Positions 7,681-53,317 of a DNA stretch of 64,000 nucleotides are shown piece after piece. The stretch is from Escherichia coli 042 (GTDB taxonomy: Bacteria; Pseudomonadota; Gammaproteobacteria; Enterobacterales; Enterobacteriaceae): the NCBI RefSeq assembly GCF_000027125.1, contig NC_017626.1. One strand, written 5' to 3'. The notes under the pieces were generated by a model. It saw only the letters and a list, made by a program, of their open reading frames with translations, did no database searches and was not told the origin of the DNA. The position numbers and the translations under genes were made by a program. The stretch's first letter is position 1; every line of letters begins with the position of its first letter.

Positions 7681-8292
<612 letters not shown>

Positions 8293-9306: not shown

Positions 9307-9447
9307 TCAACGTTTTTTCTTACGCCCCTGAACGGCCTTAAAACGTGGATTAGATTTACAAATCACATACAGCCGTCCTTTTCGCTTCACAATCTGACAG
9401 TCTGGATGGCGTTCTTTTGCGGTACGCAGAGAGTTAAGGACTTTCAT
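9307..9447 (-). CDS. rpmJ2: Zinc-independent ribosomal protein L36 paralog
   Basis: Manually translated 46-aa [49 protein letters not shown]; its ATG overlaps the rpmE2 stop (ATGA). Below the ORF-track length cutoff. Confidence 0.9.
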
Positions 9448-9710
9448 CACGCCCCCTTTTTCGTGCTAACAAAACGACCAAAACGTTGGGTGAACCGTGC
9501 AACATTTCCTTCTGATGCTACTGTTCTCAGCTTCCCTGTATAGAACGGGTGCGATTTCGAAGAGACATCAATTGTCACGTACGGATACGTTACGCCATCC
9601 AGCTCAATCTCACGGTCTGTTTTGATAGTCGAGCCGATTTTAAAGTACTCATCAACACTGGTGTCATGGAACACCACAGTACGATACTCAGGATGGATAT
9701 TGGGTTTCAT
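9447..9710 (-). CDS. rpmE2: Zinc-independent ribosomal protein L31 paralog
   Basis: ORF 9447..9713 ([19 protein letters not shown]...); conserved L31 type-B N-terminus begins at the second Met. Confidence 0.9.
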
Positions 9711-9721
9711 CATTTTTACCC

Positions 9722-9739
9722 GTTATGTTATAACATAAC
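9722..9739 (-). promoter_or_regulatory. Zur box (zinc uptake regulator operator) upstream of rpmE2-rpmJ2
   Basis: Near-perfect palindrome GTTATGTTATAACATAAC immediately upstream of the rpmE2 start; matches the ATGTTATAA/ATAACAT core of the Zur consensus. Confidence 0.7.
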
Positions 9740-10649
9740 CGTAAAGATACATGCTCATCCGGATCATTTCAACACCCAATCCCTGTGACCATTTGTGGTA
9801 TGTGGAATTTCCTCAACGGGGAAGTCTGGCATTGTTAACAGCCATTGGCTGACGCTCCCATAAACGCCTGGATGAGTGATTGATGATGGTTTCGCTGAGA
9901 GTATGGATTTTTCGAGAATGGAGGTTATCTCCACTTTACTGGCCGATGATTTATCGCAGTATGATTGATTACCTGACAGCGTGTATTCCTCTCCCACGGA
10001 TATAATAATTACTTACAAAAAGGGAGAGGATGCATATTTTAAATATCACTGAAGTGAACAGTTTATTGCCGTTATTAATAGAAATGGAAAAATAAATAGG
10101 CGTATTCTACAATTGCGACAAAAACAACGATATTAATCAGTTTATGACTGATTTGTTGTACTTTATTCTCTTTCATTGGTACTTCCTCGCTTTAAAAAAG
10201 AGTGCACTTCGTAAGTGCCCTTATATAAATAACGAGTTTGGTCAACCAATTTTTTGACATGTATCACAAATTTGAATAGATGTATTACATCAACTATCTT
10301 TTATTGCCCCAACGTCATTGATATATGTCGCCTGAAGTCAGTTCCGGGAATGAGTCTGATCTCAAGACAGGCCCAGTCCTGGCGTTGATTAGCGCTGAGG
10401 AGCATATCGCATCTCATCATAATGTCGTATCTCCTGGGGTGTTATACAAGATATCGTTGTTGGTGACCTGGGAGAGGAATTGAGTTCTATTAAACCGTCA
10501 ACTATGCCGGATACATACTGGATTACACAGCAGGCACGCCTTATGAGAGAACGTGCCGCAGTGACGGGTTAATTATCTGAAAGAATTTGCGAGGCTGTAT
10601 CGGTTACTCATTGGTTTGATAGTTTTACTCTCGGGAGAGTAATAGATAT

Positions 10650-11792
10650 TTAATCCATTAACGGAAACCAGCCAGTTCCTTTCGATGCCTGAATTTGATC
10701 CCATAGTTTATCCGGAATGGTTAATTCAGGAACAAGTTGTGGATTAAGGGTTGTTTGAATTTCATGGCTTCTACCTGATTCAGCTAAAGTCACCCATTCT
10801 GGATTTATCACCAGCCCTTTACCGATCGCAACAAGTGGCAGGCCAGTGGAAATTGCTTCTTGAGCCTGAGACGGTGTGCGTATTTTACCTGCGGCGATTA
10901 CCGGCACTCTGCCTGCAATATGATTTAAAATCAATTCAATAGTTCGGGGGCCATTTGGCGACTCAACAGGGTAGCTATCGTTAATACTGACCAGCGAGGT
11001 ATGTATATACGAAATACCGGATGAAATGAGCCGATCAAGGAGTTTATAAGTATCCTCTATCCGCAGCCCCCCTGTTGCAGATTCTTCAGGAGATATTTTG
11101 TAACCGATGGCAAAGGGCTTTGTCGCATATTCATAGACTACATTTTTTACTTCCTGTAATACGGCCAGCGGGAAGCGCATACGTCCTTCGAGATCTCCTC
11201 CCCATCGGTCATTACGCTGGTTAAATAGAGGGGAGAAGAAATTCTGTAGAAGGAATCCGTGCGCACCATGAAGTTCAATGCCATCAAAACCTGCTTTAAT
11301 CGCCCTTTTTGTGACATCTCCGAATGCTCTAATGGTTTCCTGAATTTCGTTTTCAGTCATTTCCCTGCTTTTTACCACTCTCTTCATAAAGTCACCAGAT
11401 TTTACGCTTGATGCGCTGGCACTAATAACATCGTTATTTGGTACAAGCTCCGGGATGGCTTTATTACCGGCGTGGAAAATCTGCAAAATAGCCGGAGCAC
11501 CGCCACTTTTGGCTGCCGCTGCTAACTTTTCAAGGCTGTTAATGAAACGGTCGTCATACGCGGCAAATTCATGAGTAAACCCAATGCCGTTTGGCGTGAC
11601 ATAGGTACATCCTGTTATTACTAAACCAACATTTTGTGAGCGACGTTTATAAAATTCGAGTTCTTGCTCAGAGATGGTTCCATCAGGATTCGCTGACCAG
11701 GTCGTCATAGGAGCCATAACGATACGATTACGTAGCTTTATTTTTTCTGTCAGCATAAAAGGAGAAAACAATGATGGGTGTTTATTTGTCAT
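10650..11792 (-). CDS. NADH:flavin oxidoreductase, Old Yellow Enzyme family (FMN-dependent ene-reductase)
   Basis: 380-aa ORF with OYE hallmarks (N-terminal ...RIVMAPMTTW..., HGAHGFLL motif); GAGG SD 7 nt upstream of the ATG. Confidence 0.8.
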   Translation of the reverse strand: MTNKHPSLFSPFMLTEKIKLRNRIVMAPMTTWSANPDGTISEQELEFYKRRSQNVGLVITGCTYVTPNGIGFTHEFAAYDDRFINSLEKLAAAAKSGGAPAILQIFHAGNKAIPELVPNNDVISASASSVKSGDFMKRVVKSREMTENEIQETIRAFGDVTKRAIKAGFDGIELHGAHGFLLQNFFSPLFNQRNDRWGGDLEGRMRFPLAVLQEVKNVVYEYATKPFAIGYKISPEESATGGLRIEDTYKLLDRLISSGISYIHTSLVSINDSYPVESPNGPRTIELILNHIAGRVPVIAAGKIRTPSQAQEAISTGLPLVAIGKGLVINPEWVTLAESGRSHEIQTTLNPQLVPELTIPDKLWDQIQASKGTGWFPLMD

Positions 11793-12036
11793 AACAATAC
11801 CTCAAATGTTTATCTGATTTTGATGCGTATGTTTTAACTGGTTAGTTGTTGCCAGCTTTGGAACCAAGGTTTATGGCTTTATTTATAATTCCTTCAAAGG
11901 GTTTCTAATAATCTTAATAATTGAGTTGCTGCTTTTTTGTTTCTTTAATGAAATTTCTTTTTGAGTAATTTTATTATTGTTGTGTAGTCAATAAAGGATA
12001 AATGTCAGGGAGATAAGGAATCTCCCTGTAAGATTA

Positions 12037-12957
12037 TTACAAATGTGTTTTATAAAAAGGAATTAATTTATCGAGTGCCTGTTTCACAGGTTCTGGCTTA
12101 TCATACAGGTCGTAATGTGAATAACCTTCAACCACGACCAGCTCTTTATGTTTTGAGGCAGCGCGGCCAATAATTTCGCAGCCGTCACGGTAGGCACCAA
12201 ATGCGCCCACTCTATCGCCCACCACAACCATTATTGGTTGAGTTAACAGGACTTCTGCAAGATGAAATGCATCCCAACCCACGGCAACAGTCTGATGTGA
12301 GAATAGCGAACGATTTACCCCATTAGGTGCACAGCCTCGTGGCGAACGATAATATTCTGTGGCTTCAAAAAGGTCTATTTCTGTTAATCCCGCTTCAAGA
12401 GCTGCATCCGGAGAAGAGGGGAGTAAATCATCTACGCGAAGTTTTGCGCCGTTAGCTTCGTCTGTTCTTTGTTGCGCCATTGCTTCGAGTGCTCCGATAG
12501 GATTAAACGCTGTAAATCCCTCACGCATAAGACGCCCGTAGTTTGCACCCGTGACAGTACCAATAGCTTTAATTCGACGTTCTGTCATTGCGGCATTAAT
12601 GGCATATCCACCTCCACCACAAATACCCAGTACACCAATACGCCCGGCATCAACGTAAGGTAAGGTGGTAAGGTAATCAACGACAATGCTGAAGTCTTTT
12701 ACTCGCATTGTTGGATCTTCCAGATAACGCGGTTCTCCACCGCTGCTTCCCTGAAAACTGGCATCAAAAGCAATGACGATAAAGCCAGCTTTTGCCAGGG
12801 CGGCACCATACACACTACCCGATGTTTGTTCTTTGCAGCTTCCAATTGGATGGGCGCTGATAATGGCAGGATACTTTTTTTCACTATTAAAATCGTCAGG
12901 GAAATAGATATCAGCAGCTATATCCCAGTAAGTATGTTTTATCGAAACAGTTTTCAT
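12037..12957 (-). CDS. Alpha/beta hydrolase, dienelactone-hydrolase-like, with Cys in the nucleophile elbow
   Basis: 306-aa ORF; motif GVLGICGGGG in the place of the usual G-x-S-x-G, suggesting a Cys nucleophile as in dienelactone hydrolases; GGAG SD upstream. Confidence 0.75.
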   Translation of the reverse strand: MKTVSIKHTYWDIAADIYFPDDFNSEKKYPAIISAHPIGSCKEQTSGSVYGAALAKAGFIVIAFDASFQGSSGGEPRYLEDPTMRVKDFSIVVDYLTTLPYVDAGRIGVLGICGGGGYAINAAMTERRIKAIGTVTGANYGRLMREGFTAFNPIGALEAMAQQRTDEANGAKLRVDDLLPSSPDAALEAGLTEIDLFEATEYYRSPRGCAPNGVNRSLFSHQTVAVGWDAFHLAEVLLTQPIMVVVGDRVGAFGAYRDGCEIIGRAASKHKELVVVEGYSHYDLYDKPEPVKQALDKLIPFYKTHL

Positions 12958-13113
12958 TTCAAGCTCCGGGGAATTGCCTAAACAGATTTAAATATCATTT
13001 CTATTATCCGCAACTGGCATTCGTGTTCATGTCGAGAACGGCGTAATAGTATGACTTGTATTGGTTATCATCAATGGTCTAATATCTATCACAGTGTTAA
13101 GTTAAGGTTTACA

Positions 13114-14040
13114 ATGATGAAAATAGAGCCTTCAATTTTGCCTTCTCTTGCCTGGTTTGCGCTGATTGTTCGTGCCGGCAGTTTTTCCAGAGCCGCTTCT
13201 GAAATGGGTATTACGCGGGCCGCATTGTCCCAGAATTTAAAATCTCTTGAGGAACGTCTTAACACCAAGCTGATATACCGTACGACCCGCAATATGTCGC
13301 TTACTGAGGAAGGACAGCGTCTGTATGAAGTGCTGGTGTCGGCTTTGGGGCAAATTGATGATGCTTTGAAAGATGTTGGTGATACCCAACTTGAACCTAC
13401 AGGCCTGTTGAGAATAAATTCCTCCCGTGTTGCAGCACGGATGCTTGTTGAGCCTCATATTGGCGAGTTTCTTACTCGTTACCCCAAAACAAAGATAGAA
13501 CTCATTATGGATGACGGTTTATCTAACATTATTGCGGACGGCTGTGATGTGGGCATACGTCTTGAGCAAGGACTGGATGAGCATATGACTGCCATTCCTG
13601 TTTCTCCGCTTATTAAACTGGTTACTGTGGCATCGCCAGATTATTTAAAAGAGCACGGTATTCCTGAAACGCCTCAGGAACTGAGTAACCATAATTGCCT
13701 TCGGTTGCGGCATAAAAGTAGTGGTGCACTCTCTGCATGGGAGTTTTCTAATGTTGCGGGGGGTAATGAAGAGTTCGAAATAGAGGTTTCAGGTAAGTAT
13801 ATTTCTAATGATGACGAAAGCATGATACGAATGGCGCTGAATGGAACGGGTATCATTCAACATCTGGATTTTGCAATCGCTGAACATATCAATGCGGGCA
13901 AGTTACAGCCGATTCTTGAGGATTGGGCTGTTTCATTTCCTGGATTTTATATTTATGTTTCATCACGGGTGAGAATGCCCTCTAAAGTTCGTGCTTTTAT
14001 TGATTTTATGGTGGAGAAAAGAGTAAAACTCGAAAATTGA
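13114..14040 (+). CDS. LysR-family transcriptional regulator, divergent from the hydrolase/OYE operon
   Basis: ORF 13051..14040; start set at ATG 13114 (MMKIEP...) with AAGG SD; N-terminal LysR HTH (FSRAASEMGITRAALSQNLKSLEERL). Confidence 0.75.
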   Translation: MMKIEPSILPSLAWFALIVRAGSFSRAASEMGITRAALSQNLKSLEERLNTKLIYRTTRNMSLTEEGQRLYEVLVSALGQIDDALKDVGDTQLEPTGLLRINSSRVAARMLVEPHIGEFLTRYPKTKIELIMDDGLSNIIADGCDVGIRLEQGLDEHMTAIPVSPLIKLVTVASPDYLKEHGIPETPQELSNHNCLRLRHKSSGALSAWEFSNVAGGNEEFEIEVSGKYISNDDESMIRMALNGTGIIQHLDFAIAEHINAGKLQPILEDWAVSFPGFYIYVSSRVRMPSKVRAFIDFMVEKRVKLEN

Positions 14041-14195
14041 TGATATGTGTAATTGATGGTTGCTCTGGGCGAATATCGGTAAGAGGAATAACGTAATCAT
14101 TAGGACGCGTTTACATAATAAACTTTCTGATAATTAATACTTATTTTCTATACGGCCATAATATCAATTATCATTATCACCGGTAATGTGGTTAA

Positions 14196-17071
<2,876 letters not shown>

Positions 17072-43722: not shown

Positions 43723-44655
43723 TTAATTCTCCCGATGCAGTAAATCCTGATAGATCCCCGTTAATATGCCATTTGGCGCAAATTGTTTTTTAATCCACTG
43801 CGTCACCTGACCCGTAGCAGAATGCTGAGTCGCCAGTAACATGCGCGAATCCTGGCGCGGATTATGGATTTGTCGGGTAACCAGCAGGGATTGCGTCATC
43901 GCCTCACGGACCATGTAATCCGGCAAAAACCCAATTCCTTCACCTAAAATCTGGCACTGACATTTGGTGTTGAAATCTGGCACCAGAATCGACTCCTGCC
44001 CATGCAGCAACCAGCCCACTTTTTTATTAATCGTATGCGCGGTGTCCTCCACCATGATATTAGGATAGAGACGCAGTTGGCTTTCGGCGATCGGCTCCGG
44101 CACAAAGGCTAATGGGTGATCCGGGGCGATAGCAAAAGCCCAGCGAATTGCGCCAATCTCCGTGTAATCAATGCCGCCGCCGTCCAGCAGTGTGTCGGGC
44201 GCGCCGATAGCAATATTCGCCTGATTATTAATAATCGCATCCCAGACGCCGTTATACACTTCGGTCGTCACGGTAATCTGGCAGGTTGGAAACTGCTTTT
44301 TCAGTACCTGTAATAAGCGTGCGGTGTGTTTGGGCGTATAAAGCAGTTGGTTAATACAAATGCGCACCCGTGCTTCTATACCCTGCGAAATAGTATCGAT
44401 GCTGCGTTTGATGGCGTGAAAATCATTCAGCAGGTCGGTAGCTTTGCGGAAAAAATAACGCCCGGACTCCGTTAACTCAATGCTTCGGGTACTGCGAGTG
44501 AACAGCACCACATCCAGCCCTGTTTCCATTCGCTTGATGGTGTAGCTAATGGCGGAAGTGGTTAAACCCAACTCTTCTGCGGCTTTACTGAAACTGCCAA
44601 AACGCGCAGCGGTAGTAAATGCCAACAGATTCTCTTCGGTAAAAATTGAGTTCAT
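43723..44655 (-). CDS. yahB: YahB, LysR-family transcriptional regulator
   Basis: 310-aa ORF with N-terminal LysR HTH (FSKAAEELGLTTSAISYTIKRME). Confidence 0.85.
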   Translation of the reverse strand: MNSIFTEENLLAFTTAARFGSFSKAAEELGLTTSAISYTIKRMETGLDVVLFTRSTRSIELTESGRYFFRKATDLLNDFHAIKRSIDTISQGIEARVRICINQLLYTPKHTARLLQVLKKQFPTCQITVTTEVYNGVWDAIINNQANIAIGAPDTLLDGGGIDYTEIGAIRWAFAIAPDHPLAFVPEPIAESQLRLYPNIMVEDTAHTINKKVGWLLHGQESILVPDFNTKCQCQILGEGIGFLPDYMVREAMTQSLLVTRQIHNPRQDSRMLLATQHSATGQVTQWIKKQFAPNGILTGIYQDLLHREN

Positions 44656-44746
44656 TAAACCATTCCCGCCATTATCGAATATGAATTTCTCCAGCCATGA
44701 CTGTAGAGGTATCGGTTAAAGATAGATAATCATTTTTGAATAACTT

Positions 44747-45244
44747 TTAATACCCGTCGCGTTTAGTCGTCGCTTCGCTTAATTTTTGTCCGCCATATTC
44801 TGAAATTATCCCCACGCAGTTACCCGCCAGAAAACCCAGTAATGTCACTGTCCAGTTCATCCCGCTGGCAAAAAATAGCGTCATGCCGAGAAAGCCTCCG
44901 GGAATAAAAGACAATAAACCGAAACGTCCTTGCCAGACCACCACCGCCGAGAAGGGTACAGTCATAATCACGCTCGCCCAGAACGTGGACAATCCACTCA
45001 CCGAGGCCAGCCAGCCGGCAGCCAGCGCGGCGAAAAACGCCCACACCATCCCGGAATAATTAACCGCCAGACTTCTGATAAACCCCGATTTACCGCCGCC
45101 TGCGGCATAAAAACTGCAAAAGGCGACGAAGCCAATGGTTCCTAATAATTCCCATCCCTGAGAGAGCCCGACATGTGAAGACACTAACTGCCAAAGCCCT
45201 GCACAAATACCGACGGTGACACCCGTTGCCGTGAGTCCGTTCAT
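44747..45244 (-). CDS. yahC: YahC, small inner-membrane protein
   Basis: 165-aa highly hydrophobic ORF upstream of yahB on the same strand. Confidence 0.8.
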   Translation of the reverse strand: MNGLTATGVTVGICAGLWQLVSSHVGLSQGWELLGTIGFVAFCSFYAAGGGKSGFIRSLAVNYSGMVWAFFAALAAGWLASVSGLSTFWASVIMTVPFSAVVVWQGRFGLLSFIPGGFLGMTLFFASGMNWTVTLLGFLAGNCVGIISEYGGQKLSEATTKRDGY

Positions 45245-45501
45245 CTTGTTCCCCTCTGGTTAGACATGGACGAAAGCTACTCTTACATGTGCAGACTATA
45301 GAGAAATAAAACCTGATTGAGTGAAAGGGTATCGGGTCAAAGAAACAAATATTGCACTACCGCACACTGCGAAAAGATTGTTGAACATCATTCAACAAAA
45401 AGGCGAAATACGGCGAATTAAATTTAAGCGGGTTCTTTTATCAGATTATCGTTGCTATTCTCAATTCATCGAAAACAGCCACAAAAACCAGGGGAATGTG
45501 A

Positions 45502-46107
45502 ATGACTATAAAAAATCTACCTGCCGACTATTTATTGGCTGCGCAACAGGGTGATATCGATAAAGTAAAAACCTGCCTTGCGCTGGGTGTCGATATTAAT
45601 ACCTGCGATCGTCAGGGGAAAACGGCAATTACGCTGGCAAGTTTATATCAGCAATATGCTTGCGTTCAGGCATTAATTGATGCCGGAGCGGATATTAATA
45701 AGCAAGATCAAATATGTTCAAATCCTTTTTTAATTAGCTGCCTGACCGGCGATTTAACCCTGTTACGGATTATTTTATCGGCTAAACCCGATCTTAATTG
45801 CGTCACCCGTTTTGGCGGTGTCGGCCTGACGCCTGCCTGTGAAAAAGGCCATTTAAGTATTGTAAAAGAGCTTTTGGCGCATACGGAGATTAACGTTAAC
45901 CAGACCAACCATGTTGGCTGGACGCCGCTACTGGAAGCAATTGTGCTTAATGATGGCGGGATTAAACAGCAGGCGATTGTCCAGTTATTGCTGGAACACG
46001 GTGCCAGCCCGCACATGACGGATAAATATGGCAAAACGCCGCTGGAACTGGCGCGGGAACGAGGCTTTGAAGAGATTGCGCAGTTACTGATTGCCGCAGG
46101 TGCATAA
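45502..46107 (+). CDS. yahD: YahD, ankyrin-repeat protein
   Basis: 201-aa ORF with consecutive ankyrin repeats (G.TAL..A...G....V..LL..GADIN). Confidence 0.85.
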   Translation: MTIKNLPADYLLAAQQGDIDKVKTCLALGVDINTCDRQGKTAITLASLYQQYACVQALIDAGADINKQDQICSNPFLISCLTGDLTLLRIILSAKPDLNCVTRFGGVGLTPACEKGHLSIVKELLAHTEINVNQTNHVGWTPLLEAIVLNDGGIKQQAIVQLLLEHGASPHMTDKYGKTPLELARERGFEEIAQLLIAAGA

Positions 46108-46146
46108 ACCGGGAGGCTTGCTATCAACACACCAGAAAGACGGTGT

Positions 46147-47010
46147 GTGTGGGCGCTAACTGCGGATGCTGATTTTCTGGCGCAGCGGGGGCAAGGACAG
46201 GTTGAACAGGTCTTTGCCAGAGCGGTAAATATCGCACTTCCGGCCCGCCAGCAGTTGCTGACGCTGCTTTGTGAAGAGTACGACAATGCGCCAAACAGTT
46301 GTCGGTTGGCACTCACTCACTTTGATGATCTGTTCCGGCATGGTGATAAGGTTCAGTTTGACGATCAAGGCATTACGGTTGGTCAACATCTTCATATAGA
46401 GATGAGTCGTTGTCGGCGTTGGCTGTCCCCAACCTTGCAAATGACCGCTGTGAATTTTCACCTTATCGCCTGGCAACAGTGGCATGACATTATTCATCAG
46501 CACCTGGGGGAAAATGAAACCCTGTTTAATTATCGCGGCGATAATCCGTTTTATCAGGCGTTAAATAAAGAATTACATATTAAACGACAGGCAGTTATTC
46601 AGGCAGTAAACGATAAACAAAATATCGCCTCAGCGGTCGTCAGTATGATGGGCTTAGGGATTGGCCTTACGCCATCAGCCGACGATTATTTAACAGGTCT
46701 GGCGCTTATTTTATTTATTTCCGGACATCCGTCGGAAAAATACAAAGAGGAATTTTATCTCGGTCTGCAACGCGGCAGAAATAATACCACGTTATTAAGT
46801 GCCATAACGCTGGAAGCCGCATTACAACAACGCTGCCGGGAAAATATTCATCGTTTTATTCATAACATTATTTATGACATCCCTGGGAACGCAACTCAGG
46901 CAATAGAAAAAATTAAACATATTGGCTCCAGTTCCGGCTGCGACATGCTGTATGGCATGGCCGATGGTTGTGCGCTGAGCCAAACCTACGGAGGGAATTA
47001 TGTCAGTTAA
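46147..47010 (+). CDS. yahE: YahE (DUF2877), YlbF-like
   Basis: 287-aa ORF; overlaps the yahF start by 11 nt. Confidence 0.8.
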   Translation: MWALTADADFLAQRGQGQVEQVFARAVNIALPARQQLLTLLCEEYDNAPNSCRLALTHFDDLFRHGDKVQFDDQGITVGQHLHIEMSRCRRWLSPTLQMTAVNFHLIAWQQWHDIIHQHLGENETLFNYRGDNPFYQALNKELHIKRQAVIQAVNDKQNIASAVVSMMGLGIGLTPSADDYLTGLALILFISGHPSEKYKEEFYLGLQRGRNNTTLLSAITLEAALQQRCRENIHRFIHNIIYDIPGNATQAIEKIKHIGSSSGCDMLYGMADGCALSQTYGGNYVS

Positions 47011-48547
47011 AATAGTCATTAAACCGAATACCTATTTTGATTCTGTCTCGCTGATGTCTATCTCCACGCGTGCAAATAAACTCGACGGCGTCGAGCAGGC
47101 ATTTGTGGCGATGGCGACCGAAATGAACAAAGGCGTACTGAAGAATTTAGGGCTGCTGACGCCGGAGCTGGAGCAGGCGAAAAACGGCGACCTGATGATT
47201 GTCATTAACGGCAAAGCGGGCGCAGACAACGAGCAGTTGCTGGTGGAGATTGAAGAACTGTTCAACACCAAAGCGCAAAGCGGCTCGCACGAGGCGCGTT
47301 ACGCCACTATTGCCAGCGCCAAAAAGCATATCCCGGAAAGTAACCTGGCGGTGATTTCGGTCAACGGTCTGTTTGCTGCTCGCGAAGCGCGTCAGGCACT
47401 GCAAAACGATCTTAACGTGATGCTGTTTTCCGATAACGTCTCAGTTGAAGATGAACTGGCGCTCAAACAACTGGCCCACGAAAAAGGGCTGCTGATGATG
47501 GGGCCAGACTGCGGCACGGCGATTATCAACGGCGCGGCGCTCTGCTTTGGTAACGCCGTGCGTCGCGGCAACATCGGTATTGTTGGCGCATCTGGCACCG
47601 GCAGCCAGGAGCTGAGCGTCCGTATCCATGAATTTGGCGGCGGCGTTTCGCAACTGATTGGCACCGGCGGGCGCGACCTGAGCGAGAAAATCGGCGGCCT
47701 GATGATGCTCGACGCCATCGGGATGCTGGAAAACGATCCGCAAACTGAAATCATTGTGCTTATCTCCAAACCGCCTGCGCCTGCGGTGGCCCGCAAAGTG
47801 CTGGAACGCGCACGTGCCTGCCGCAAGCCGGTGGTGGTCTGCTTCCTCGGTCGTGGCGAAACGCCAGTGGATGAGCAGGGGCTACAGTTTGCCCGCGGCA
47901 GTAAAGAGGCGGCATTGAAAGCGGTGATGCTCTCCGGCGTGAAACAGGAACATCTCGAGCTGCATACGCTGAACCAGTCGTTGATTGCTGACGTGCGCGC
48001 TCGCCTGCAACCGCAGCAGAAATACATTCGTGGCCTGTTCTGCGGCGGTACGCTGTGTGACGAAACCATGTTCGCGGTGATGGAAAAACATGGCGATGTC
48101 TACAGCAATATTCAGCCCGATCCTGAATTCCGCCTGCAAGATATCAACCGCAGCATCAAACACACCTTCCTCGACTTTGGCGATGACGACTTCACCAACG
48201 GCAAGCCGCATCCAATGATTGACCCGACCAACCGTATCAGCCGCTTGATCGAAGAGGCGCGCGATCCAGAAGTGGCGGTGATCGTGATGGATTTTGTGCT
48301 CGGATTTGGATCGCATGAAGATCCGGTCGGTTCCACCATCGAGGCGATCAAAGAGGCGAAAGCGATCGCCGCTGCCGAAGGACGTGAGTTGATCATTCTC
48401 GCCTATGTGCTGGGTACCGATCTTGATACGCCATCATTAGAACAACAAAGCCAGATGCTGCTTGATGCCGGAGTGATTCTGGCAAGCAGCAGCACCAATA
48501 CCGGATTGCTGGCGCGTGAATTTATCTGCAAAGGGGAGGAAGCCTGA
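47000..48547 (+). CDS. yahF: YahF, FdrA-like protein with succinyl-CoA-synthetase-alpha-like CoA-binding fold
   Basis: 515-aa ORF; Gly-rich nucleotide/CoA-binding segments (GIVGASGTGSQE, GTGGRD). Confidence 0.85.
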   Translation: MSVKIVIKPNTYFDSVSLMSISTRANKLDGVEQAFVAMATEMNKGVLKNLGLLTPELEQAKNGDLMIVINGKAGADNEQLLVEIEELFNTKAQSGSHEARYATIASAKKHIPESNLAVISVNGLFAAREARQALQNDLNVMLFSDNVSVEDELALKQLAHEKGLLMMGPDCGTAIINGAALCFGNAVRRGNIGIVGASGTGSQELSVRIHEFGGGVSQLIGTGGRDLSEKIGGLMMLDAIGMLENDPQTEIIVLISKPPAPAVARKVLERARACRKPVVVCFLGRGETPVDEQGLQFARGSKEAALKAVMLSGVKQEHLELHTLNQSLIADVRARLQPQQKYIRGLFCGGTLCDETMFAVMEKHGDVYSNIQPDPEFRLQDINRSIKHTFLDFGDDDFTNGKPHPMIDPTNRISRLIEEARDPEVAVIVMDFVLGFGSHEDPVGSTIEAIKEAKAIAAAEGRELIILAYVLGTDLDTPSLEQQSQMLLDAGVILASSSTNTGLLAREFICKGEEA

Positions 48548-49965
48548 TGAGCCAGTCACTGTTTAGCCAACCGTTGAACGTTATTAACGTCGGCATCGCC
48601 ATGTTTAGCGATGATCTGAAAAAGCAGCATGTAGAAGTGACCCAACTCGACTGGACGCCGCCGGGGCAGGGCAATATGCAGGTGGTGCAGGCGCTGGACA
48701 ACATTGCCGATTCCCCGCTGGCGGACAAAATCGCCTCCGCGAATCAGCAGGCGCTGGAGCGCATTATTCAGTCACATCCGGTGCTGATTGGTTTTGATCA
48801 GGCGATTAACGTGGTGCCGGGCATGACGCCGAAAACCATTCTTCACGCCGGGCCGCCGATCACCTGGGAAAAAATGTGCGGTGCGATGAAAGGCGCGGTC
48901 ACCGGGGCGCTGGTGTTCGAAGGGCTGGCGAAAGATCTCGACGAGGCGGCTGAACTGGCGGCCTCCGGGGAGATCTCCTTCTCGCCGTGCCACGAACATG
49001 ACTGCGTGGGATCGATGGCTGGTGTTACCTCGGCCTCGATGTTTATGCACATCGTAAAAAACAAAACCTACGGCAACATCGCTTACACCAATATGAGCGA
49101 GCAGATGGCGAAGATTTTGCGTATGGGCGCTAACGACCAGAGCGTGATTGACCGCCTCAACTGGATGCGCGATGTGCAGGGGCCCATGCTGCGCGACGCG
49201 ATGAAAATTATCGGCGAGATCGATCTGCGCTTGATGCTGGCGCAGGCGCTGCATATGGGCGATGAATGCCATAACCGCAATAACGCCGGGACTACGCTGC
49301 TGATTCAGGCGCTGACGCCGGGGATTATTCAGGCGGGCTATTCCGTCGAGCAACAGCGCGAAGTGTTTGAGTTTGTCGCCAGCAGCGACTACTTCTCCGG
49401 CCCGACGTGGATGGCGATGTGTAAAGCGGCGATGGATGCGGCGCACGGCATCGAATACAGCACCGTGGTGACCACGATGGCGCGTAACGGCGTCGAGTTC
49501 GGCCTGCGGGTCAGCGGATTACCGGGGCAGTGGTTTACCGGTCCGGCGCAGCAGGTGATCGGCCCGATGTTTGCCGGTTATAAGCCGGAAGATTCTGGAT
49601 TGGATATTGGCGACAGTGCCATCACCGAAACCTACGGTATTGGCGGATTTGCTATGGCGACCGCGCCTGCAATCGTCGCGCTGGTGGGCGGTACGGTGGA
49701 AGAGGCTATCGATTTCTCCCGTCAGATGCGCGAAATCACTCTCGGCGAAAACCCCAACGTCACCATTCCGCTGCTCGGTTTTATGGGCGTGCCGTCGGCA
49801 ATCGACATCACCCGCGTGGGCAGTAGCGGCATTCTGCCAGTGATCAACACCGCCATCGCTCATAAAGATGCGGGCATCGGCATGATTGGCGCGGGCATTG
49901 TGCATCCACCATTCGCCTGCTTCGAAAAAGCCATTCTTGGCTGGTGCGAACGTTACGGCGTCTGA
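48547..49965 (+). CDS. yahG: YahG (DUF1116), YlbE-like
   Basis: 472-aa ORF; its ATG overlaps the yahF stop (TGATG). Confidence 0.85.
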   Translation: MSQSLFSQPLNVINVGIAMFSDDLKKQHVEVTQLDWTPPGQGNMQVVQALDNIADSPLADKIASANQQALERIIQSHPVLIGFDQAINVVPGMTPKTILHAGPPITWEKMCGAMKGAVTGALVFEGLAKDLDEAAELAASGEISFSPCHEHDCVGSMAGVTSASMFMHIVKNKTYGNIAYTNMSEQMAKILRMGANDQSVIDRLNWMRDVQGPMLRDAMKIIGEIDLRLMLAQALHMGDECHNRNNAGTTLLIQALTPGIIQAGYSVEQQREVFEFVASSDYFSGPTWMAMCKAAMDAAHGIEYSTVVTTMARNGVEFGLRVSGLPGQWFTGPAQQVIGPMFAGYKPEDSGLDIGDSAITETYGIGGFAMATAPAIVALVGGTVEEAIDFSRQMREITLGENPNVTIPLLGFMGVPSAIDITRVGSSGILPVINTAIAHKDAGIGMIGAGIVHPPFACFEKAILGWCERYGV

Positions 49966-49984
49966 CCTGCAAAGTGCGCGTTGT

Positions 49985-50165
49985 CTCTGCCGGATGCGGC
50001 GTGAACGCCTTATCCGGCCTACGAGTGGCGCGAGAATCTGTAGGCCTGATAAGCGTAGCGCATCAGGCATTTGTCACCATTGCCGGATGCGGCGTGAACG
50101 CCTTATCCGGCCTACGAATGGCACGAGAATTCTAGGCCTGATAAGCGTAGCGCATCAGGCAGTCT
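49985..50165. repeat. REP/BIME element pair (two inverted REP units) between yahG and yahI
   Basis: Two copies of GCCGGATGCGGCGTGAACGCCTTATCCGGCCTACG and two of TAGGCCTGATAAGCGTAGCGCATCAGGC in alternating orientation. Confidence 0.7.
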
Positions 50166-50210
50166 GGCGTTGGTCATAACCCCATCACCCTCTGTAGCGG
50201 ACATAACAAC

Positions 50211-51161
50211 ATGAAAGAACTTGTGGTCGTTGCCATTGGTGGCAACAGCATTATCAAAGATAACGCCAGCCAGTCGATTGAGCATCAGGCGGAGGCGGTG
50301 AAAGCCGTGGCCGATACGGTGCTGGAAATGCTGGCTTCCGATTACGACATTGTGCTGACCCACGGCAACGGGCCGCAGGTCGGGCTGGATTTACGCCGTG
50401 CGGAGATTGCCCACGAGCGTGAAGGGCTGCCCTTAATGCCGCTGGCGAACTGTGTGGCAGATACGCAAGGCGGCATTGGCTACTTGATCCAGCAGGCGCT
50501 GAACAACCGACTGGCGCGTCACAGCGAGAAAAAAGCCGTCACCGTGGTGACTCAGGTGGAAGTGGATATAAACGATCCGGGTTTTGCTCATCCCACCAAG
50601 CCCATCGGCGCATTCTTCAGTGAAAGCCAGCGTGACGAATTACAAAAGGCAAACCCTGACTGGCGTTTTGTTGAAGATGCCGGACGGGGCTATCGCCGCG
50701 TGGTCGCCTCGCCGGAACCGAAACGTATTGTCGAGGCACCTGCCATTAAGGCGCTGATCCAACAAGGCTTTGTCGTAATTGGTGCGGGCGGCGGTGGAAT
50801 TCCGGTAGTGCGTACTGACGCGGGGGATTACCAAAGCGTGGACGCGGTTATCGACAAAGATCTCTCTACCGCGCTGCTGGCCCGTGAAATTCACGCCGAC
50901 ATTCTGGTGATCACCACCGGCGTCGAAAAAGTCTGTATTCACTTTGGCAAGCCGCAGCAGCAGGCGCTGGATCGGGTGGATATTGCCACCATGACCCGCT
51001 ATATGCAGGAAGGGCATTTCCCGCCTGGCAGCATGTTGCCAAAAATCATCGCCAGCCTGGCGTTCCTGGAACAGGGCGGCAAAGAAGTGATTATCACCAC
51101 GCCGGAATGCCTGCCTGCGGCGCTGCGTGGTGAAACGGGCACCCACATTATTAAAACGTAA
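50211..51161 (+). CDS. yahI: YahI, carbamate kinase-like protein (ArcC family)
   Basis: 316-aa ORF; amino-acid-kinase-fold N-terminus (VVAIGGNSI...THGNGPQVG), as in carbamate kinases. Confidence 0.85.
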   Translation: MKELVVVAIGGNSIIKDNASQSIEHQAEAVKAVADTVLEMLASDYDIVLTHGNGPQVGLDLRRAEIAHEREGLPLMPLANCVADTQGGIGYLIQQALNNRLARHSEKKAVTVVTQVEVDINDPGFAHPTKPIGAFFSESQRDELQKANPDWRFVEDAGRGYRRVVASPEPKRIVEAPAIKALIQQGFVVIGAGGGGIPVVRTDAGDYQSVDAVIDKDLSTALLAREIHADILVITTGVEKVCIHFGKPQQQALDRVDIATMTRYMQEGHFPPGSMLPKIIASLAFLEQGGKEVIITTPECLPAALRGETGTHIIKT

Positions 51162-51170
51162 GGACGTAAG

Positions 51171-52550
51171 ATGAAAGAAAACAATAGCCGCCGTGAATTT
51201 CTGAGCCAGAGCGGTAAGATGGTCACCGCCGCCGCGCTGTTTGGTACCTCTGTGCCGCTCGCCCATGCGGCAGTCTCTGGCACAACCCACTGCGACGCGA
51301 ATAACACCATGAAAATCACTGACCCGCACTACTATCTCGACAACGTGCTGCTGGAAACCGGTTTTGACTACGAAAATGGCGTGGCGGTACAGACCCGCAT
51401 GGCGCGCCAGACCGTGGAGATTCAGGACGGTAAAATTGTTGCCCTGCGCGAGAACAAGCAGCATCCGGACGCCACGCTGCCGCACTATGACGCTGGCGGT
51501 AAGCTGATGCTGCCCACCACCCGCGACATGCATATTCATCTCGACAAAACCTTCTACGGCGGGCCGTGGCGCTCGCTCAATCGTCCGGCAGGCACCACTA
51601 TCCAGGACATGATCAAACTCGAGCAGAAAATGCTGCCGGAACTGCAACCGTACACTCAGGAACGAGCGGAAAAACTGATCGATTTATTGCAGTCGAAAGG
51701 CACCACCATTGCCCGCAGCCACTGCAATATCGAACCGGTTTCCGGCCTGAAAAATCTGCAAAATTTGCAGGCGGTGCTGGCGCGACGTCAGGCGGGCTTC
51801 GAGTGTGAAATTGTCGCCTTCCCGCAGCACGGTTTGCTGCTGTCGAAATCGGAACCCTTAATGCGCGAAGCGATGCAGGCAGGGGCGCATTACGTCGGCG
51901 GGCTGGACCCAACCAGTGTTGATGGCGCGATGGAAAAATCCCTCGACACCATGTTCCAGATTGCGCTGGACTACGACAAAGGCGTCGATATTCACCTACA
52001 CGAAACCACTCCGGCAGGCGTGGCAGCCATCAATTATATGGTTGAAACGGTAGAGAAAACGCCACAGCTGAAGGGCAAGCTGACCATCAGCCACGCCTTT
52101 GCGCTGGCAACGCTCAATGAGCAACAGGTAGATGAACTGGCGCACCGGATGGCGGCGCAGCAAATTTCTATCGCCTCGACGGTGCCGATTGGCACGTTGC
52201 ATATGCCGCTCAAACAACTGCACGACAAAGGCGTAAAAGTTATGACCGGCACCGACAGCGTTATCGACCACTGGTCGCCTTACGGCCTGGGCGACATGCT
52301 GGAAAAAGCCAATCTGTACGCGCAGCTCTATATTCGTCCTAACGAACAGAACCTCTCCCGCTCGCTGTTTTTAGCCACTGGCGATGTATTGCCGCTCAAC
52401 GAAAAAGGCGAGCGCGTGTGGCCCAAAGCGCAGGATGACGCCAGTTTTGTGCTGGTGGACGCCTCCTGTTCCGCCGAGGCGGTGGCGCGTATCTCGCCGA
52501 GAACGGCAACGTTCCATAAAGGACAACTGGTGTGGGGGAGTGTGGTGTAA
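51171..52550 (+). CDS. yahJ: YahJ, metal-dependent amidohydrolase/deaminase with twin-arginine (Tat) signal peptide
   Basis: 459-aa ORF; N-terminal SRREFLSQSGKMVTAAALFGTSVPLAHA is a Tat motif with h-region and AxA site; amidohydrolase-superfamily His/Asp metal-ligand pattern. Confidence 0.85.
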   Translation: MKENNSRREFLSQSGKMVTAAALFGTSVPLAHAAVSGTTHCDANNTMKITDPHYYLDNVLLETGFDYENGVAVQTRMARQTVEIQDGKIVALRENKQHPDATLPHYDAGGKLMLPTTRDMHIHLDKTFYGGPWRSLNRPAGTTIQDMIKLEQKMLPELQPYTQERAEKLIDLLQSKGTTIARSHCNIEPVSGLKNLQNLQAVLARRQAGFECEIVAFPQHGLLLSKSEPLMREAMQAGAHYVGGLDPTSVDGAMEKSLDTMFQIALDYDKGVDIHLHETTPAGVAAINYMVETVEKTPQLKGKLTISHAFALATLNEQQVDELAHRMAAQQISIASTVPIGTLHMPLKQLHDKGVKVMTGTDSVIDHWSPYGLGDMLEKANLYAQLYIRPNEQNLSRSLFLATGDVLPLNEKGERVWPKAQDDASFVLVDASCSAEAVARISPRTATFHKGQLVWGSVV

Positions 52551-52669: not shown

Positions 52670-53317
52670 GTGAAATTTCTTTGGTTATCGCTGTTGTTTC
52701 TGAGTCAGGCCGTCCTGGCAACTTGCCCTGCTGGAAATTCACAACACGAATGCGAGGCGGTGCGCATACAGCCCCTGGTCACGCCGGAGCAGAAAAAAGA
52801 TGCCTTAACGCAATTGCAAAAGTTTCAGCAAGCGCTGAGTGCAAAGAATGCCACGAAACTAAAAACCTTCTTAAAATTCCCCTACGATACCTATTTCGGC
52901 TTTCTCGCTGAGATTGAGTTGCCTGAATCTGAACCCTTCACAGAAGCACTATTTGATCGCCATTCAGAAACCATTATGCGGCGTCTGCATAATGTCACAA
53001 AATTCACGATACATCCGGGTACCCAATGGATTGATGATTATCTCAGTCATTCGCTGACGCCAGCGGAGCAAAAAAGAAAATATTATCCCCTCAATGATGG
53101 ACGTTTCTATTACGAAGAGAAAGGGGAGCGCCACTACGTCACGGGAATATGTGAACTGGCGATGTCGGGGAATATTTCTGACGATGGCATTACGCTGAAT
53201 ATTGGTTCGCAGGCTAATGAACAAATTCCACCGGCTGTTTGTGATGGCACAACTATACTGGAATTTGGCATGATTAACGGGCAGTTAAAGTTATTGCGTG
53301 TTTCTTTTGCGGGGTAA
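52670..53317 (+). CDS. Hypothetical exported protein with four Cys, no family recognised
   Basis: 215-aa ORF from GTG with GGGATGG upstream; signal peptide MKFLWLSLLFLSQAVLA; four Cys in the mature part. No recognisable family, so whether it is a real gene is uncertain. Confidence 0.5.
   Translation: MKFLWLSLLFLSQAVLATCPAGNSQHECEAVRIQPLVTPEQKKDALTQLQKFQQALSAKNATKLKTFLKFPYDTYFGFLAEIELPESEPFTEALFDRHSETIMRRLHNVTKFTIHPGTQWIDDYLSHSLTPAEQKRKYYPLNDGRFYYEEKGERHYVTGICELAMSGNISDDGITLNIGSQANEQIPPAVCDGTTILEFGMINGQLKLLRVSFAG

What the first reader, a model, noticed from the sequence alone, without database searches (positions are those of the whole stretch)
45502..52550. yahDEFG-yahIJ: a second, uncharacterised carbamoyltransferase / carbamate-kinase-type catabolic module with a Tat-exported amidohydrolase
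Seen in sequence: six co-oriented genes with overlapping or tightly spaced starts (yahE/yahF overlap 11 nt; yahF/yahG share TGATG; yahI-yahJ gap 9 nt), split only by a REP pair. Products: ankyrin-repeat protein, DUF2877 protein, FdrA-like CoA-ligase-alpha-fold protein, DUF1116 protein, carbamate-kinase-like protein, amidohydrolase with a clear twin-arginine signal (SRREFL). Established knowledge as I recall it: YahE/YahF/YahG/YahI are paralogs of YlbF/FdrA/YlbE/YbcF from the allantoin locus, which have been linked to oxamate carbamoyltransferase plus carbamate kinase (ATP from carbamoyl phosphate). Inference: this cluster is a parallel pathway that releases carbamoyl phosphate from a different, unknown ureido/carbamoyl compound, with the periplasmic amidohydrolase and the ankyrin protein as pathway-specific extras. 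The LysR gene yahB sits just upstream on the opposite strand.
Basis: partly seen in the sequence, partly recalled or inferred. Interest (0 to 1): 0.7.

Follow-up and report, generated by a model that had tools for sequence, protein, structure and literature searches.

The report
Second AllFGH-type carbamoyltransferase operon, yahDEFGIJ
This is the E. coli yahB/yahC–yahDEFG–yahIJ locus, an uncharacterised paralogue of the recently solved allFGHK module (three-subunit transcarbamylase plus carbamate kinase) that probably makes ATP from an unknown nucleobase-like nitrogen compound.

Summary
Six co-oriented genes sit at the stated coordinates, with the stated junctions, REP elements and SRREFL twin-arginine signal.

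YahF, YahG, YahE and YahI are clear paralogues of AllF, AllG, AllH and AllK (39, 46, 25 and 38% identity). The divergent regulator YahB is 39% identical to AllS, the activator of allFGHK. AllFGH was shown in 2024 to be oxamic transcarbamylase. No paper in the searched library assigns a function to the yah genes.

- **Conservation:** the block yahB…yahJ is co-linear in 32 enterobacterial species. All genes are under purifying selection, and yahI–yahJ is present in 93% of complete E. coli genomes.
- **Ancestral form:** the older architecture carries a 516-aa AzgA/NCS2-like permease gene exactly where E. coli has the REP elements. The E. coli clade lost it once and carries yahC (DUF1097) instead.
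- **Signature across phyla:** AllH/F/G with an ankyrin-repeat protein, this permease, usually a carbamate kinase, and in most loci a deaminase. The deaminase is a Tat-exported CodA/AtzC-like amidohydrolase, or a guanine-deaminase-like enzyme in Bacillales.

Best reading: an energy-conserving route for an amino/oxo N-heterocycle, distinct from oxalurate. It is a new member of a known kind with an unknown substrate, moderately interesting and directly testable.

The parts
43723..44655 (-). yahB, a LysR-type regulator and paralogue of AllS
   Evidence: Its best NCBIfam model is AllS (7e-80, below the equivalog cutoff), followed by PunR. It is 39% identical to K-12 AllS, E 6e-73. It is conserved at 86-99% next to the operon in all 32 loci.
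44747..45244 (-). yahC, a small polytopic membrane protein (DUF1097) and candidate replacement for the lost permease
   Evidence: Annotated as DUF1097. It is present only in the 13 loci that lack the permease gene and absent from the 19 that have it. That clade is monophyletic, so this reflects a single event.
45378..45398 (.). Dyad TTGTTGAA-N5-TTCAACAA in the yahC-yahD intergenic region, a candidate YahB operator
   Evidence: It lies 124 nt upstream of the yahD ATG, inside a block conserved among the yahD upstream regions of 42 loci. Binding has not been tested.
45502..46107 (+). yahD, a 201-aa cytoplasmic ankyrin-repeat protein
   Evidence: It gives ankyrin hits and full-length matches to solved ankyrin proteins 5d66 and 3hra. 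An ankyrin or ankyrin+TPR protein accompanies AllH/F/G in every yah-type locus I examined.
46147..47010 (+). yahE, the AllH-family (formerly DUF2877) subunit
47000..48547 (+). yahF, the AllF/FdrA-family subunit (HMA-like N-terminal domain plus succinyl-CoA-synthetase-alpha-like domains)
   Evidence: It is 39% identical to AllF, E 6e-103. It scores 492 against NCBIfam PRK06091, above the cutoff of 433, and matches PDB 3dmy at 8e-83. The catalytic phospho-histidine loop of SCS-alpha is deleted.
48547..49965 (+). yahG, the AllG-family (formerly DUF1116) subunit
   Evidence: It is 46% identical to AllG, E 4e-120. It matches solved structure 3clq at 1.4e-195. It is 69-98% identical across phyla, with dN/dS about 0.025. 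Its first ~50 residues are homologous to the C-terminal tail of AllF.
49980..50165 (.). Two BIME-like REP pairs filling the slot where relatives carry a permease gene
   Evidence: The REP motifs are at 49989, 50044, 50082 and 50136. In 19 other species a 516-aa AzgA/NCS2-like permease gene lies between yahG and yahI. No remnant of it is in the window.
50211..51161 (+). yahI, a carbamate-kinase-family protein
   Evidence: It scores 641 against NCBIfam PRK12352, cutoff 266. It is 38% identical to AllK. It matches P. furiosus carbamate kinase 1e19 at 1.4e-81, and the motifs GGN(10), HGNGPQVG(51), IDKD(214) and GSMLPK(273) are all conserved.
51171..52550 (+). yahJ, a Tat-signal amidohydrolase of the CodA/AtzC subgroup (signal peptide about 51171-51269)
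   Evidence: It scores 713 against NCBIfam PRK06846, cutoff 447. Its best PDB hits are AtzC-like 6nbo (4e-44), AtzC 2qt3, then CodA. The metal and catalytic motifs HIHLDK(121), AFPQ(216), HLHE(275), SHA(307) and GTD(360) are present. The twin-arginine motif is conserved in all orthologues, including Pasteurella (48% identity) and Shinella (44%).

Best explanation
The locus is one regulated catabolic unit. It is built on the same enzyme pair as allFGHK but serves a different, still unknown, nucleobase-like substrate.

Proposed flow (all steps inferred):
1. YahB, an AllS-like LysR activator, switches on yahDEFGIJ.
2. YahJ, folded with its metal and exported by Tat, hydrolytically deaminates an amino-substituted N-heterocycle or amidine in the periplasm.
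3. The oxo product, or a related compound taken up directly, enters the cell. Entry is through the AzgA/NCS2-like permease in most bacteria, and presumably through YahC or another carrier in the E. coli clade.
4. A YahE-YahF-YahG complex, with the ankyrin protein YahD as a subtype-specific fourth component, uses phosphate to cleave a carbamoyl group from an N-acylurea-type bond and releases carbamoyl phosphate.
5. YahI transfers the phosphate to ADP, giving ATP, NH3 and CO2.

Shown here: homology, domain and motif integrity, co-linearity, purifying selection and the conserved partner set. Inferred: the direction (catabolic), carbamoyl-phosphate formation, the substrate class, the order of steps and the role of YahD.
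For: **Paralogy with the characterised system**
- All four enzyme pairs are homologous, and so are the regulators.
- AllFGH is experimentally the OXTCase and AllK a carbamate kinase (PMC11326118, PMC9843812). AllS activates allFGHK (PMC12535856).

**One unit**
- The genes overlap or nearly abut, and no terminator-like site lies on the + strand within the block.
- yahB...yahJ is co-linear in 32 species and sits in a different chromosomal context in K. aerogenes.
- dN/dS is 0.02-0.28 for every gene. yahI-yahJ is in 5035 of 5426 E. coli genomes.

**Distinct from the all system**
- The yah-type proteins form a separate clade on a long branch.
- A delta-allFGH strain makes no oxamate, in what is presumably a K-12 background, which carries the yah genes. 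I did not check the strain.

**Nucleobase-like substrate**
- A permease that sources name xanthine/AGZA-family sits inside the operon in 19 species and next to AllH/F/G in Brevibacillus, Janthinobacterium, Bosea, Pasteurella, Photobacterium and Psychrobacillus.
- Extra NCS1 cytosine/purine permeases and PucR regulators occur in some of these loci.
- Two unrelated deaminase folds fill the same place. One is the CodA/AtzC-like YahJ. The other is a CDA-fold enzyme whose best match is B. subtilis guanine deaminase.

**Periplasmic step**
- The twin-arginine motif is conserved in every YahJ orthologue.
- In Shinella the permease sits next to a Tat-signal amidohydrolase 44% identical to YahJ, with no AllHFG genes in the 21.5-kb stretch fetched.

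**Not a CoA ligase**
- YahF lacks the catalytic histidine loop of SCS-alpha.
Against: - No substrate, activity or inducing condition is known. The papers found by my yah-gene searches in the held library either only list the genes or report the delta-yahJ fitness defect.
- The operon encodes no ring-opening enzyme, so it is unclear how a heterocycle would become a linear N-acylurea.
- E. coli itself lacks the permease, and YahC transport is a guess resting on a single evolutionary event.
- YahJ occurs without YahEFGI in Erwinia, Xenorhabdus and Shewanella. AllH/F/G occur without a YahJ-type enzyme in Janthinobacterium and Photobacterium. The deaminase link is therefore facultative.
- The AllH fold gave no mechanistic clue.
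Confidence: 0.6

Rival explanations
1. The locus is a redundant second oxamic transcarbamylase. YahEFG-YahI act on oxalurate just as AllFGH-AllK do, but are switched on by a different signal or source, for example oxalurate or parabanate arising from oxidised purines.
For: The subunit set is the same and a carbamate kinase is adjacent. The regulator is AllS-like. Partial rescue of delta-allFGH by allFG (7%) or allGH (16%) could mean that Yah subunits can substitute in hybrid complexes.
Against: Delta-allFGH makes no oxamate during anaerobic growth on allantoin, in what is presumably a yah+ K-12 background. Identity is only 25-46% and the two types are separated by a long branch. Yah-type clusters always carry an ankyrin protein and a nucleobase-type permease, and usually a deaminase, none of which oxalurate would need. 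An AzgA-like permease is not an obvious carrier for an anionic ureide.
Confidence: 0.14
2. There are two unrelated modules that happen to be interleaved. One is a yahB-yahD-yahJ periplasmic deaminase unit, for nitrogen scavenging or detoxification. The other is a yahEFG-yahI unit. They share no pathway.
For: Erwinia carries LysR | YahD (65% identity)-YahJ (75%) with overlapping genes and no EFGI. YahJ stands alone in Xenorhabdus and Shewanella. Janthinobacterium and the E. coli plasmid copy lack YahJ.
Against: The gene order is fixed in 30+ species. The ankyrin protein is in all 41 AllHFG-bearing yah-type loci I examined, including those without YahJ, but in only 1 of 4 YahJ-only loci. In Bacillales an unrelated deaminase takes the equivalent place in the operon, which argues for a functional need for deamination.
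Confidence: 0.12
3. In E. coli the operon is a cryptic remnant that no longer works, because its dedicated permease was replaced by REP elements.
For: The permease is absent from the window, with no remnant. No phenotype or inducing condition has been reported, and the y-ome review lists the genes as uncharacterised.
Against: All eight genes are under strong purifying selection, even against Kluyvera and Klebsiella where dS is about 1. yahI-yahJ is retained in 93% of genomes. Delta-yahJ has a small fitness defect in an ExPEC infection model, with a competitive index of 0.70. The whole yahC-type clade has kept the operon since the swap.
Confidence: 0.08
4. The module runs in the anabolic or reverse direction. 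YahI makes carbamoyl phosphate and YahDEFG carbamoylates an acceptor amide to build an N-acylurea compound.
For: The OXTCase assay is run in the carbamoylating direction, and the reaction is reversible. YahI's best structural match is the P. furiosus enzyme. From memory, that enzyme has been discussed as a carbamoyl-phosphate-forming kinase.
Against: The partner genes are uptake permeases, deaminases and PucR/LysR regulators typical of catabolism. No biosynthetic or export genes are conserved nearby.
Confidence: 0.05

Closest known systems
AllFGH oxamic transcarbamylase plus AllK carbamate kinase of the E. coli allantoin regulon (Kim and Kim 2022, 2024, 2025)
   Same: It has the same three protein families plus a carbamate kinase in one operon. 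Both are controlled by a LysR activator of the same subfamily. YahF lacks the SCS-alpha catalytic histidine loop; from my reading of the alignment, AllF/FdrA lacks it too, but that was not aligned to SCS-alpha here.
   Different: - The gene order is H-F-G rather than F-G-H.
- Identity is 25-46%, and the two types fall in separate clades.
- A conserved ankyrin-repeat partner, a nucleobase-type permease (or YahC) and a Tat-exported deaminase accompany the yah type. None of these is in the all locus.
- A ~45-residue segment lies at the N-terminus of YahG but at the C-terminus of AllF.
- The substrate is unknown, and the yah genes do not replace allFGH in vivo.
Arginine deiminase and agmatine deiminase pathways (deiminase, transcarbamylase, carbamate kinase, transporter)
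   Same: The overall logic is the same. A hydrolytic deiminase or deaminase creates a ureide, phosphorolysis gives carbamoyl phosphate, carbamate kinase makes ATP, and a dedicated transporter is encoded alongside. This comparison rests on established knowledge of those pathways.
   Different: The transcarbamylase is the unrelated AllFGH type rather than the OTC/ATC fold. The deaminase is an amidohydrolase-superfamily enzyme and is periplasmic. This is a functional analogy only and was not tested.
Cytosine deaminase CodA and N-isopropylammelide isopropylaminohydrolase AtzC (amidohydrolase superfamily)
   Same: YahJ shares the HxHxDK, AFPQ, HxHE/D, SHA and GxD motifs and aligns over about 350 residues.
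   Different: It scores far below the CodA family cutoffs, 103 against 438. It belongs to its own NCBIfam subfamily, PRK06846. It carries a conserved Tat signal, which I do not see in the CodA or AtzC chains aligned.
Other AllFGH-like clusters: the APEC tkt1-island cluster with an isochorismatase-family hydrolase and a CodB-like permease, and the biuH/trtA-linked allFGHK of nitrifiers
   Same: AllH/F/G homologues plus a carbamate kinase are combined with a hydrolase and a nucleobase-family permease.
   Different: The accessory hydrolase family differs and no ankyrin protein is reported. YahG is only about 46% identical to the tkt1-island protein.

Membership tests
AllFGH-type (three-subunit) transcarbamylase | Adjacent genes for an AllF/FdrA-family, an AllG (PF06545) and an AllH (PF11392) protein | tested here: met
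   BLASTP gives E 6e-103, 4e-120 and 1e-10. NCBIfam PRK06091 is above its cutoff. The K. aerogenes orthologues carry the Pfam labels AllH, HMA_AllF_N/CoA_binding/Ligase_CoA and AllG.
AllFGH-type (three-subunit) transcarbamylase | Family-invariant AllH motifs (GxGxGLTPxxDD and GSSSGxD) | tested here: met
   16 columns are invariant across 25 sequences, including K-12 AllH.
AllFGH-type (three-subunit) transcarbamylase | Phosphate-dependent release of carbamoyl phosphate from an N-acylurea | not testable with these tools
   This needs an enzyme assay. It has been shown only for AllFGH.
Oxamic transcarbamylase proper (orthologue of AllFGH, substrate oxalurate) | Orthology with, or functional replacement of, AllFGH | tested here: not met
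   The yah type forms a separate clade on a long branch. Identity is 25-46%. Published delta-allFGH strains make no oxamate, presumably in a yah+ K-12 background.
Carbamate kinase (amino-acid kinase fold) | Family model above cutoff and conserved nucleotide and phosphate motifs | tested here: met
   PRK12352 scores 641, cutoff 266. The arcC equivalog TIGR00746 scores 347.7, just under its cutoff of 358.25. The GGN, HGNGPQVG, IDKD and GSMxPK motifs are conserved against 1e19 and AllK.
Twin-arginine (Tat) exported proteins | An N-terminal S/T-R-R-x-F-L motif, a hydrophobic stretch and an AxA cleavage site | tested here: met
   SRREFL at residues 6-11 is followed by a hydrophobic stretch ending in AHA. 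The motif is conserved in all orthologues down to 44% identity. YahJ is listed as a Tat substrate in PMC7549933. Export itself was not tested here.
Cytosine deaminase / AtzC equivalogs | Score above the curated family cutoffs | tested here: not met
   The cytosine deaminase models score 72-103 bits, against cutoffs of 403-483. YahJ shares the catalytic motifs but belongs to a separate subfamily.
NDP-forming acyl-CoA synthetase / succinyl-CoA synthetase alpha (the current database name 'acyl-CoA synthetase FdrA') | The catalytic phospho-histidine loop (GHAGA) | tested here: not met
   In the alignment to SCS-alpha 2yv2, the 'mGhagai' loop falls in a gap of YahF. The CoA-binding and ligase-CoA domains themselves are present.
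AllS (LysR activator of the allantoin regulon) | Equivalog-level match | tested here: not met
   AllS is the best model but scores 268 bits, below its cutoff of 372. Identity to AllS is 39%. YahB is a paralogue, not an orthologue.

The most novel reading that the evidence does not exclude
The yah-type clusters (ankyrin protein, AllH/F/G, AzgA-like permease, usually a carbamate kinase, and often a deaminase) may encode a widespread 'deiminase-pathway-like' route for a cyclic acyl-guanidine or amidine base. Candidates are guanine-, isocytosine-, ammelide-, cytosine- or creatinine-like compounds.

In this reading, deamination creates a cyclic N-acylurea. The YahDEFG complex then opens or cleaves it by phosphorolysis, so that ring nitrogen and carbon are converted into ATP without a separate ring-opening hydrolase. 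This would be a new mode of anaerobic nucleobase catabolism, present in 93% of E. coli genomes.

A side claim is that DUF1097 (YahC) is a transporter that replaced the NCS2-like permease.
Probability: 0.2. Interest if true: 0.8.

Novelty: new member of a known kind. Interest (0 to 1): 0.5.

Why it matters
The AllFGH transcarbamylase class was defined only in 2024, from a single enzyme. The yah operon is a second representative with a different substrate, and it sits in the best-studied bacterium. It is near-core in E. coli, and related clusters are spread across Proteobacteria and Bacillales.

Finding its substrate would do four things:
- remove eight genes from the E. coli y-ome;
- show how substrate range is set in this enzyme class;
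- explain why a bacterial enzyme complex keeps an ankyrin-repeat partner;
- possibly reveal an ATP-yielding route for a nucleobase-like compound in the gut.

The comparative data narrow the candidate substrates and supply a natural experimental host, namely Citrobacter strains that still carry the in-operon permease.

Tried and rejected
- **YahG model:** the AF2 model was poor (pLDDT 58.7) because the alignment is too uniform, so I ran no fold search on it.
- **YahG versus SucC:** I tested by hhalign whether YahG resembles the succinyl-CoA synthetase beta subunit. It found nothing (probability 0.2), so the 'degenerate SCS' idea stays untested at the structural level.
- **Permease families:** the permease has no Pfam, NCBIfam or PDB sequence hit. 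Its family assignment rests on names given by sources and on one Pfam Xan_ur_permease hit among its homologues.
- **Promoter and terminator scans:** they were uninformative, with fewer promoter-like sites than in shuffles and no + strand terminator.
- **A misleading prevalence figure:** '3093 of 5426 genomes with at least 80% of the query' looked like variable presence. A query without the REP elements gives 5035 of 5426.
- **Neighbours of YahJ:** the genes next to YahJ in Xenorhabdus and Shewanella are not ankyrin proteins.
- **Literature:** searches for each yah gene, DUF1116/DUF2877, allFGH and yahB found no functional study. The Huynh and Stewart purine-catabolism review could not be opened.

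Full report
**Observation**

The window is E. coli DNA. The 7-kb stretch matches complete E. coli genomes at 95-97.4% identity, and RefSeq annotates it as yahD, yahE, 'fdrA' (yahF), yahG, yahI and yahJ.
- an 11-nt yahE/yahF overlap;
- a shared TGATG at the yahF/yahG junction;
- a 9-nt yahI-yahJ gap;
- two BIME-like REP pairs in the 245-nt yahG-yahI spacer;
- an SRREFL twin-arginine motif at the start of YahJ.

The one inaccuracy concerns yahB. It is not directly adjacent, because the small membrane-protein gene yahC (DUF1097) lies between yahB and yahD on the minus strand.

**Homology with the allantoin-locus genes**

I took the all genes from K-12 and compared them pairwise:

| Yah protein | All protein | Identity | E-value |
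|---|---|---|---|
| YahF | AllF (FdrA) | 39% | 6e-103 |
| YahG | AllG (YlbE) | 46% | 4e-120 |
| YahE | AllH (YlbF) | 25% | 1e-10 |
| YahI | AllK (YbcF) | 38% | 1e-57 |
| YahB | AllS | 39% | 6e-73 |

The paralogy extends to the regulator. YahB's best family model is AllS.

A small structural shift also links the two systems. Residues ~12-53 of YahG are homologous to the C-terminal tail of AllF. The same segment is therefore attached to different subunits in the two systems, which fits F and G working as one complex.

**What is known**

- AllFGH was shown with purified protein and deletion mutants to be oxamic transcarbamylase (PMC11326118).
- AllK is a catabolic carbamate kinase (PMC9843812).
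- AllS and ArcA activate allFGHK (PMC12535856).
- The OXTCase and carbamate-kinase papers do not mention the yah paralogues.
- The 2024 y-ome review lists yahC, E, G, H, I and J as uncharacterised.
- An EHEC translatomics paper treats yahDEFGIJ as a likely operon.
- YahJ is listed as a Tat substrate, and delta-yahJ has a mild competitive defect (CI 0.70) in an ExPEC infection model.
- No paper in the library assigns a function.

**Comparative genomics within Enterobacterales**

A genome scan with YahE returned 32 species loci. In every complete locus the order is yahB, (yahC), yahD-E-F-G, a gap, then yahI-J. Two architectures exist:

| Architecture | Loci | Members | yahG-yahI spacer |
|---|---|---|---|
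| yahC present | 13 | Escherichia, Kluyvera, C. amalonaticus, Raoultella terrigena, an Enterobacter sp., a Pseudocitrobacter MAG | short |
| yahC absent | 19 | the Citrobacter freundii group, Trabulsiella, Yokenella, Buttiauxella, Atlantibacter, Serratia silvae | holds a 516-aa membrane-protein gene |

. K. aerogenes, found separately, has the yahC form.

The 516-aa protein has no Pfam, NCBIfam or PDB sequence hit. Sources name it xanthine permease or AGZA-family permease, and it is 65-85% identical across Proteobacteria and Firmicutes. The window holds no remnant of it.

A YahF+YahG tree places the yahC-type loci as one clade nested inside the permease-type loci, and the tree does not follow species relationships. 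The permease form is therefore ancestral. The swap happened once, and the whole block moves horizontally. In E. coli the REP elements occupy the former permease slot.

**Comparative genomics beyond Enterobacterales**

I followed the permease and AllG into other phyla:

| Organism | Gene content of the locus |
|---|---|
| Brevibacillus | PucR; Ank-AllH-AllF-AllG-NCS1 permease-CK-CDA-fold deaminase-permease |
| Psychrobacillus | PucR; AllH-F-G-(Ank+TPR)-CK-permease-CDA-fold deaminase |
| Janthinobacterium | Ank-AllH-F-G-permease-CK-LysR |
| Bosea | PucR; permease-(Ank+TPR)-AllH-F-G-CK, with an amidohydrolase alongside |
| Pasteurella testudinis | permease; Ank-AllH-F-G-CK-LysR-Tat amidohydrolase |
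| Photobacterium | permease-(Ank+TPR)-AllF-AllG, with AllH and LysR nearby |

An ankyrin-repeat protein accompanies AllH/F/G in all 41 such loci I examined. That covers 31 of the 32 scan loci (L006 is cut short after yahE), the six loci in the table, K. aerogenes, the two copies of the mobile E. coli cluster and strain N3.

The deaminase varies in fold. In Gammaproteobacteria it is the CodA/AtzC-like YahJ. In Bacillales it is a CDA-fold enzyme whose best solved relative is B. subtilis guanine deaminase (6e-31). I found none in Janthinobacterium or Photobacterium.

YahJ also occurs without AllH/F/G. It is paired with YahB and YahD in Erwinia. It stands alone in Xenorhabdus and Shewanella. A 44%-identical Tat-signal homologue sits next to the permease in Shinella.

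**Protein features**

- **YahI** keeps all the carbamate-kinase motifs and passes a carbamate kinase family model.
- **YahJ** has the full CodA/AtzC set of metal and catalytic motifs but fails the cytosine deaminase cutoffs. Its twin-arginine motif is conserved in every orthologue down to 44% identity.
- **YahF** has the two SCS-alpha-like domains but lacks the catalytic histidine loop. The database name 'acyl-CoA synthetase' is therefore not supported as a function.
- **YahE** modelled confidently as an N-terminal beta domain plus a helical bundle, with no close relative in the PDB.
- **YahG and YahD** already have solved close relatives. These are 3clq for YahG and 5d66 and 3hra for YahD. 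From memory, 3clq and 3hra are Enterococcus faecalis structural-genomics entries. I could not check this.

**Selection and distribution**

Pairwise dN/dS against E. albertii, Citrobacter, Kluyvera and Klebsiella is 0.02-0.13 for most genes and 0.20-0.28 for yahE. All eight genes are therefore maintained by selection. yahI-yahJ is present at 80% coverage or more in 5035 of 5426 complete E. coli genomes.

A second copy, flanked by insertion sequences, has the form LysR | Ank-AllH-FdrA-AllG-permease-CK. It sits on IncF plasmids and chromosomal islands in 142 genomes. A third AllFGH-like cluster lies in the APEC tkt1 island.

**Most likely mechanism**

By analogy with AllFGHK, YahEFG most likely uses phosphate to release carbamoyl phosphate from an N-acylurea-type bond, and YahI converts it to ATP, NH3 and CO2.

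The conserved partners argue that the substrate is a nucleobase-like amino/oxo heterocycle rather than oxalurate. These partners are a nucleobase-family permease, PucR or AllS-like regulators, and two unrelated deaminase folds. YahJ would deaminate an amino form in the periplasm before uptake. The logic resembles the arginine and agmatine deiminase pathways.

The weak point is the missing ring-opening step. One possibility is that the substrate is linear, for example an acyl-guanidine that becomes an acyl-urea. A second is that the ring opens spontaneously or through an enzyme encoded elsewhere. A third is that the YahDEFG complex acts directly on a cyclic N-acylurea. None of this has been tested.

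The role of YahD is unknown. Its perfect co-occurrence with AllH/F/G, compared with 1 of 4 YahJ-only loci, suggests it belongs to the transcarbamylase complex.

**Rivals**

- **Redundant oxalurate enzyme.** This is weakened by the zero oxamate made by delta-allFGH and by the distinct partner set.
- **Two unrelated interleaved modules.** The Erwinia locus supports this. The fixed gene order and the analogous deaminases in Bacillales weaken it.
- **A dead remnant in E. coli.** Purifying selection and 93% retention weaken this.
- **Anabolic direction.** The uptake and catabolic context weakens this.

**Verdict**

The locus is a new member of the recently defined AllFGH/carbamate-kinase kind. It has its own conserved accessories and an unknown substrate, and there is a clear experimental path to finding that substrate.

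Noticed in passing
window 52670-53317: A 215-aa ORF with a lipoprotein-like N-terminus (…LATC) and no family hit lies between yahJ and yahK. The stretch is in only 59 of 5426 complete E. coli genomes, at 99-100% identity. Strain N3 has an ASCH gene plus an ABC transporter at the same spot, so this position downstream of yahJ is variable.
   Followed up: partly
L041 5107-13540 and L042 5107-13540 (E. coli IncFII plasmid and chromosomal island): A second yah-like cluster flanked by insertion sequences has the form LysR | ankyrin-AllH-FdrA-AllG-permease-carbamate kinase, with no amidohydrolase. It occurs in 142 of 5426 E. coli genomes, with 106 of its 152 occurrences on plasmids.
   Followed up: partly
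window 48547-48710 versus L002 8100-8345: The first ~50 residues of YahG are homologous to the C-terminal tail of K-12 FdrA/AllF (E 6e-8). The same segment is therefore encoded on different neighbouring genes in the two paralogous operons.
   Followed up: yes
window 45378-45398: A perfect 8-bp inverted repeat, TTGTTGAA-N5-TTCAACAA, lies 124 nt upstream of yahD. It sits inside a sequence block conserved in the yahD upstream regions of 42 loci and is a candidate YahB operator.
   Followed up: partly
window 43723-52550 versus L001: Synonymous divergence from E. coli strain N3 jumps from 0.01-0.03 (yahB-yahE) to 0.07-0.16 (yahF-yahJ). This suggests a recombination breakpoint near the yahE/yahF junction.
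   Followed up: no
L018 (Pseudocitrobacter MAG) 7574-16385: In this MAG, yahF-yahJ are 98-99% identical in protein to the window, but yahD and yahE are only 72% and 58% identical. It is either a recombinant operon or a chimeric metagenome bin.
   Followed up: no
window 51159-51173 (yahI stop to yahJ start): The 9-nt gap is in frame. The protein database holds a few 677-780-aa carbamate kinase-amidohydrolase fusions (P0122-P0124, P0128), each a singleton. They are probably stop-codon losses or sequencing errors.
   Followed up: no
Literature, PMC11326118 Table 3: In delta-allFGH, plasmids carrying only allFG or only allGH restore 7% and 16% of oxamate production. This might reflect hybrid complexes with YahE or YahF. 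The authors do not discuss it.
   Followed up: no
L043 8279-11389 (Erwinia rhapontici): A LysR gene lies divergent from a YahD orthologue (65% identity) whose end overlaps the start of a YahJ orthologue (75% identity). There are no AllH/F/G or carbamate kinase genes.
   Followed up: yes
window 49966-50210: The REP-filled spacer corresponds to the withdrawn gene 'yahH'. An EHEC ribosome-profiling study reported footprints on an ORF there. I did not assess whether it is translated.
   Followed up: no
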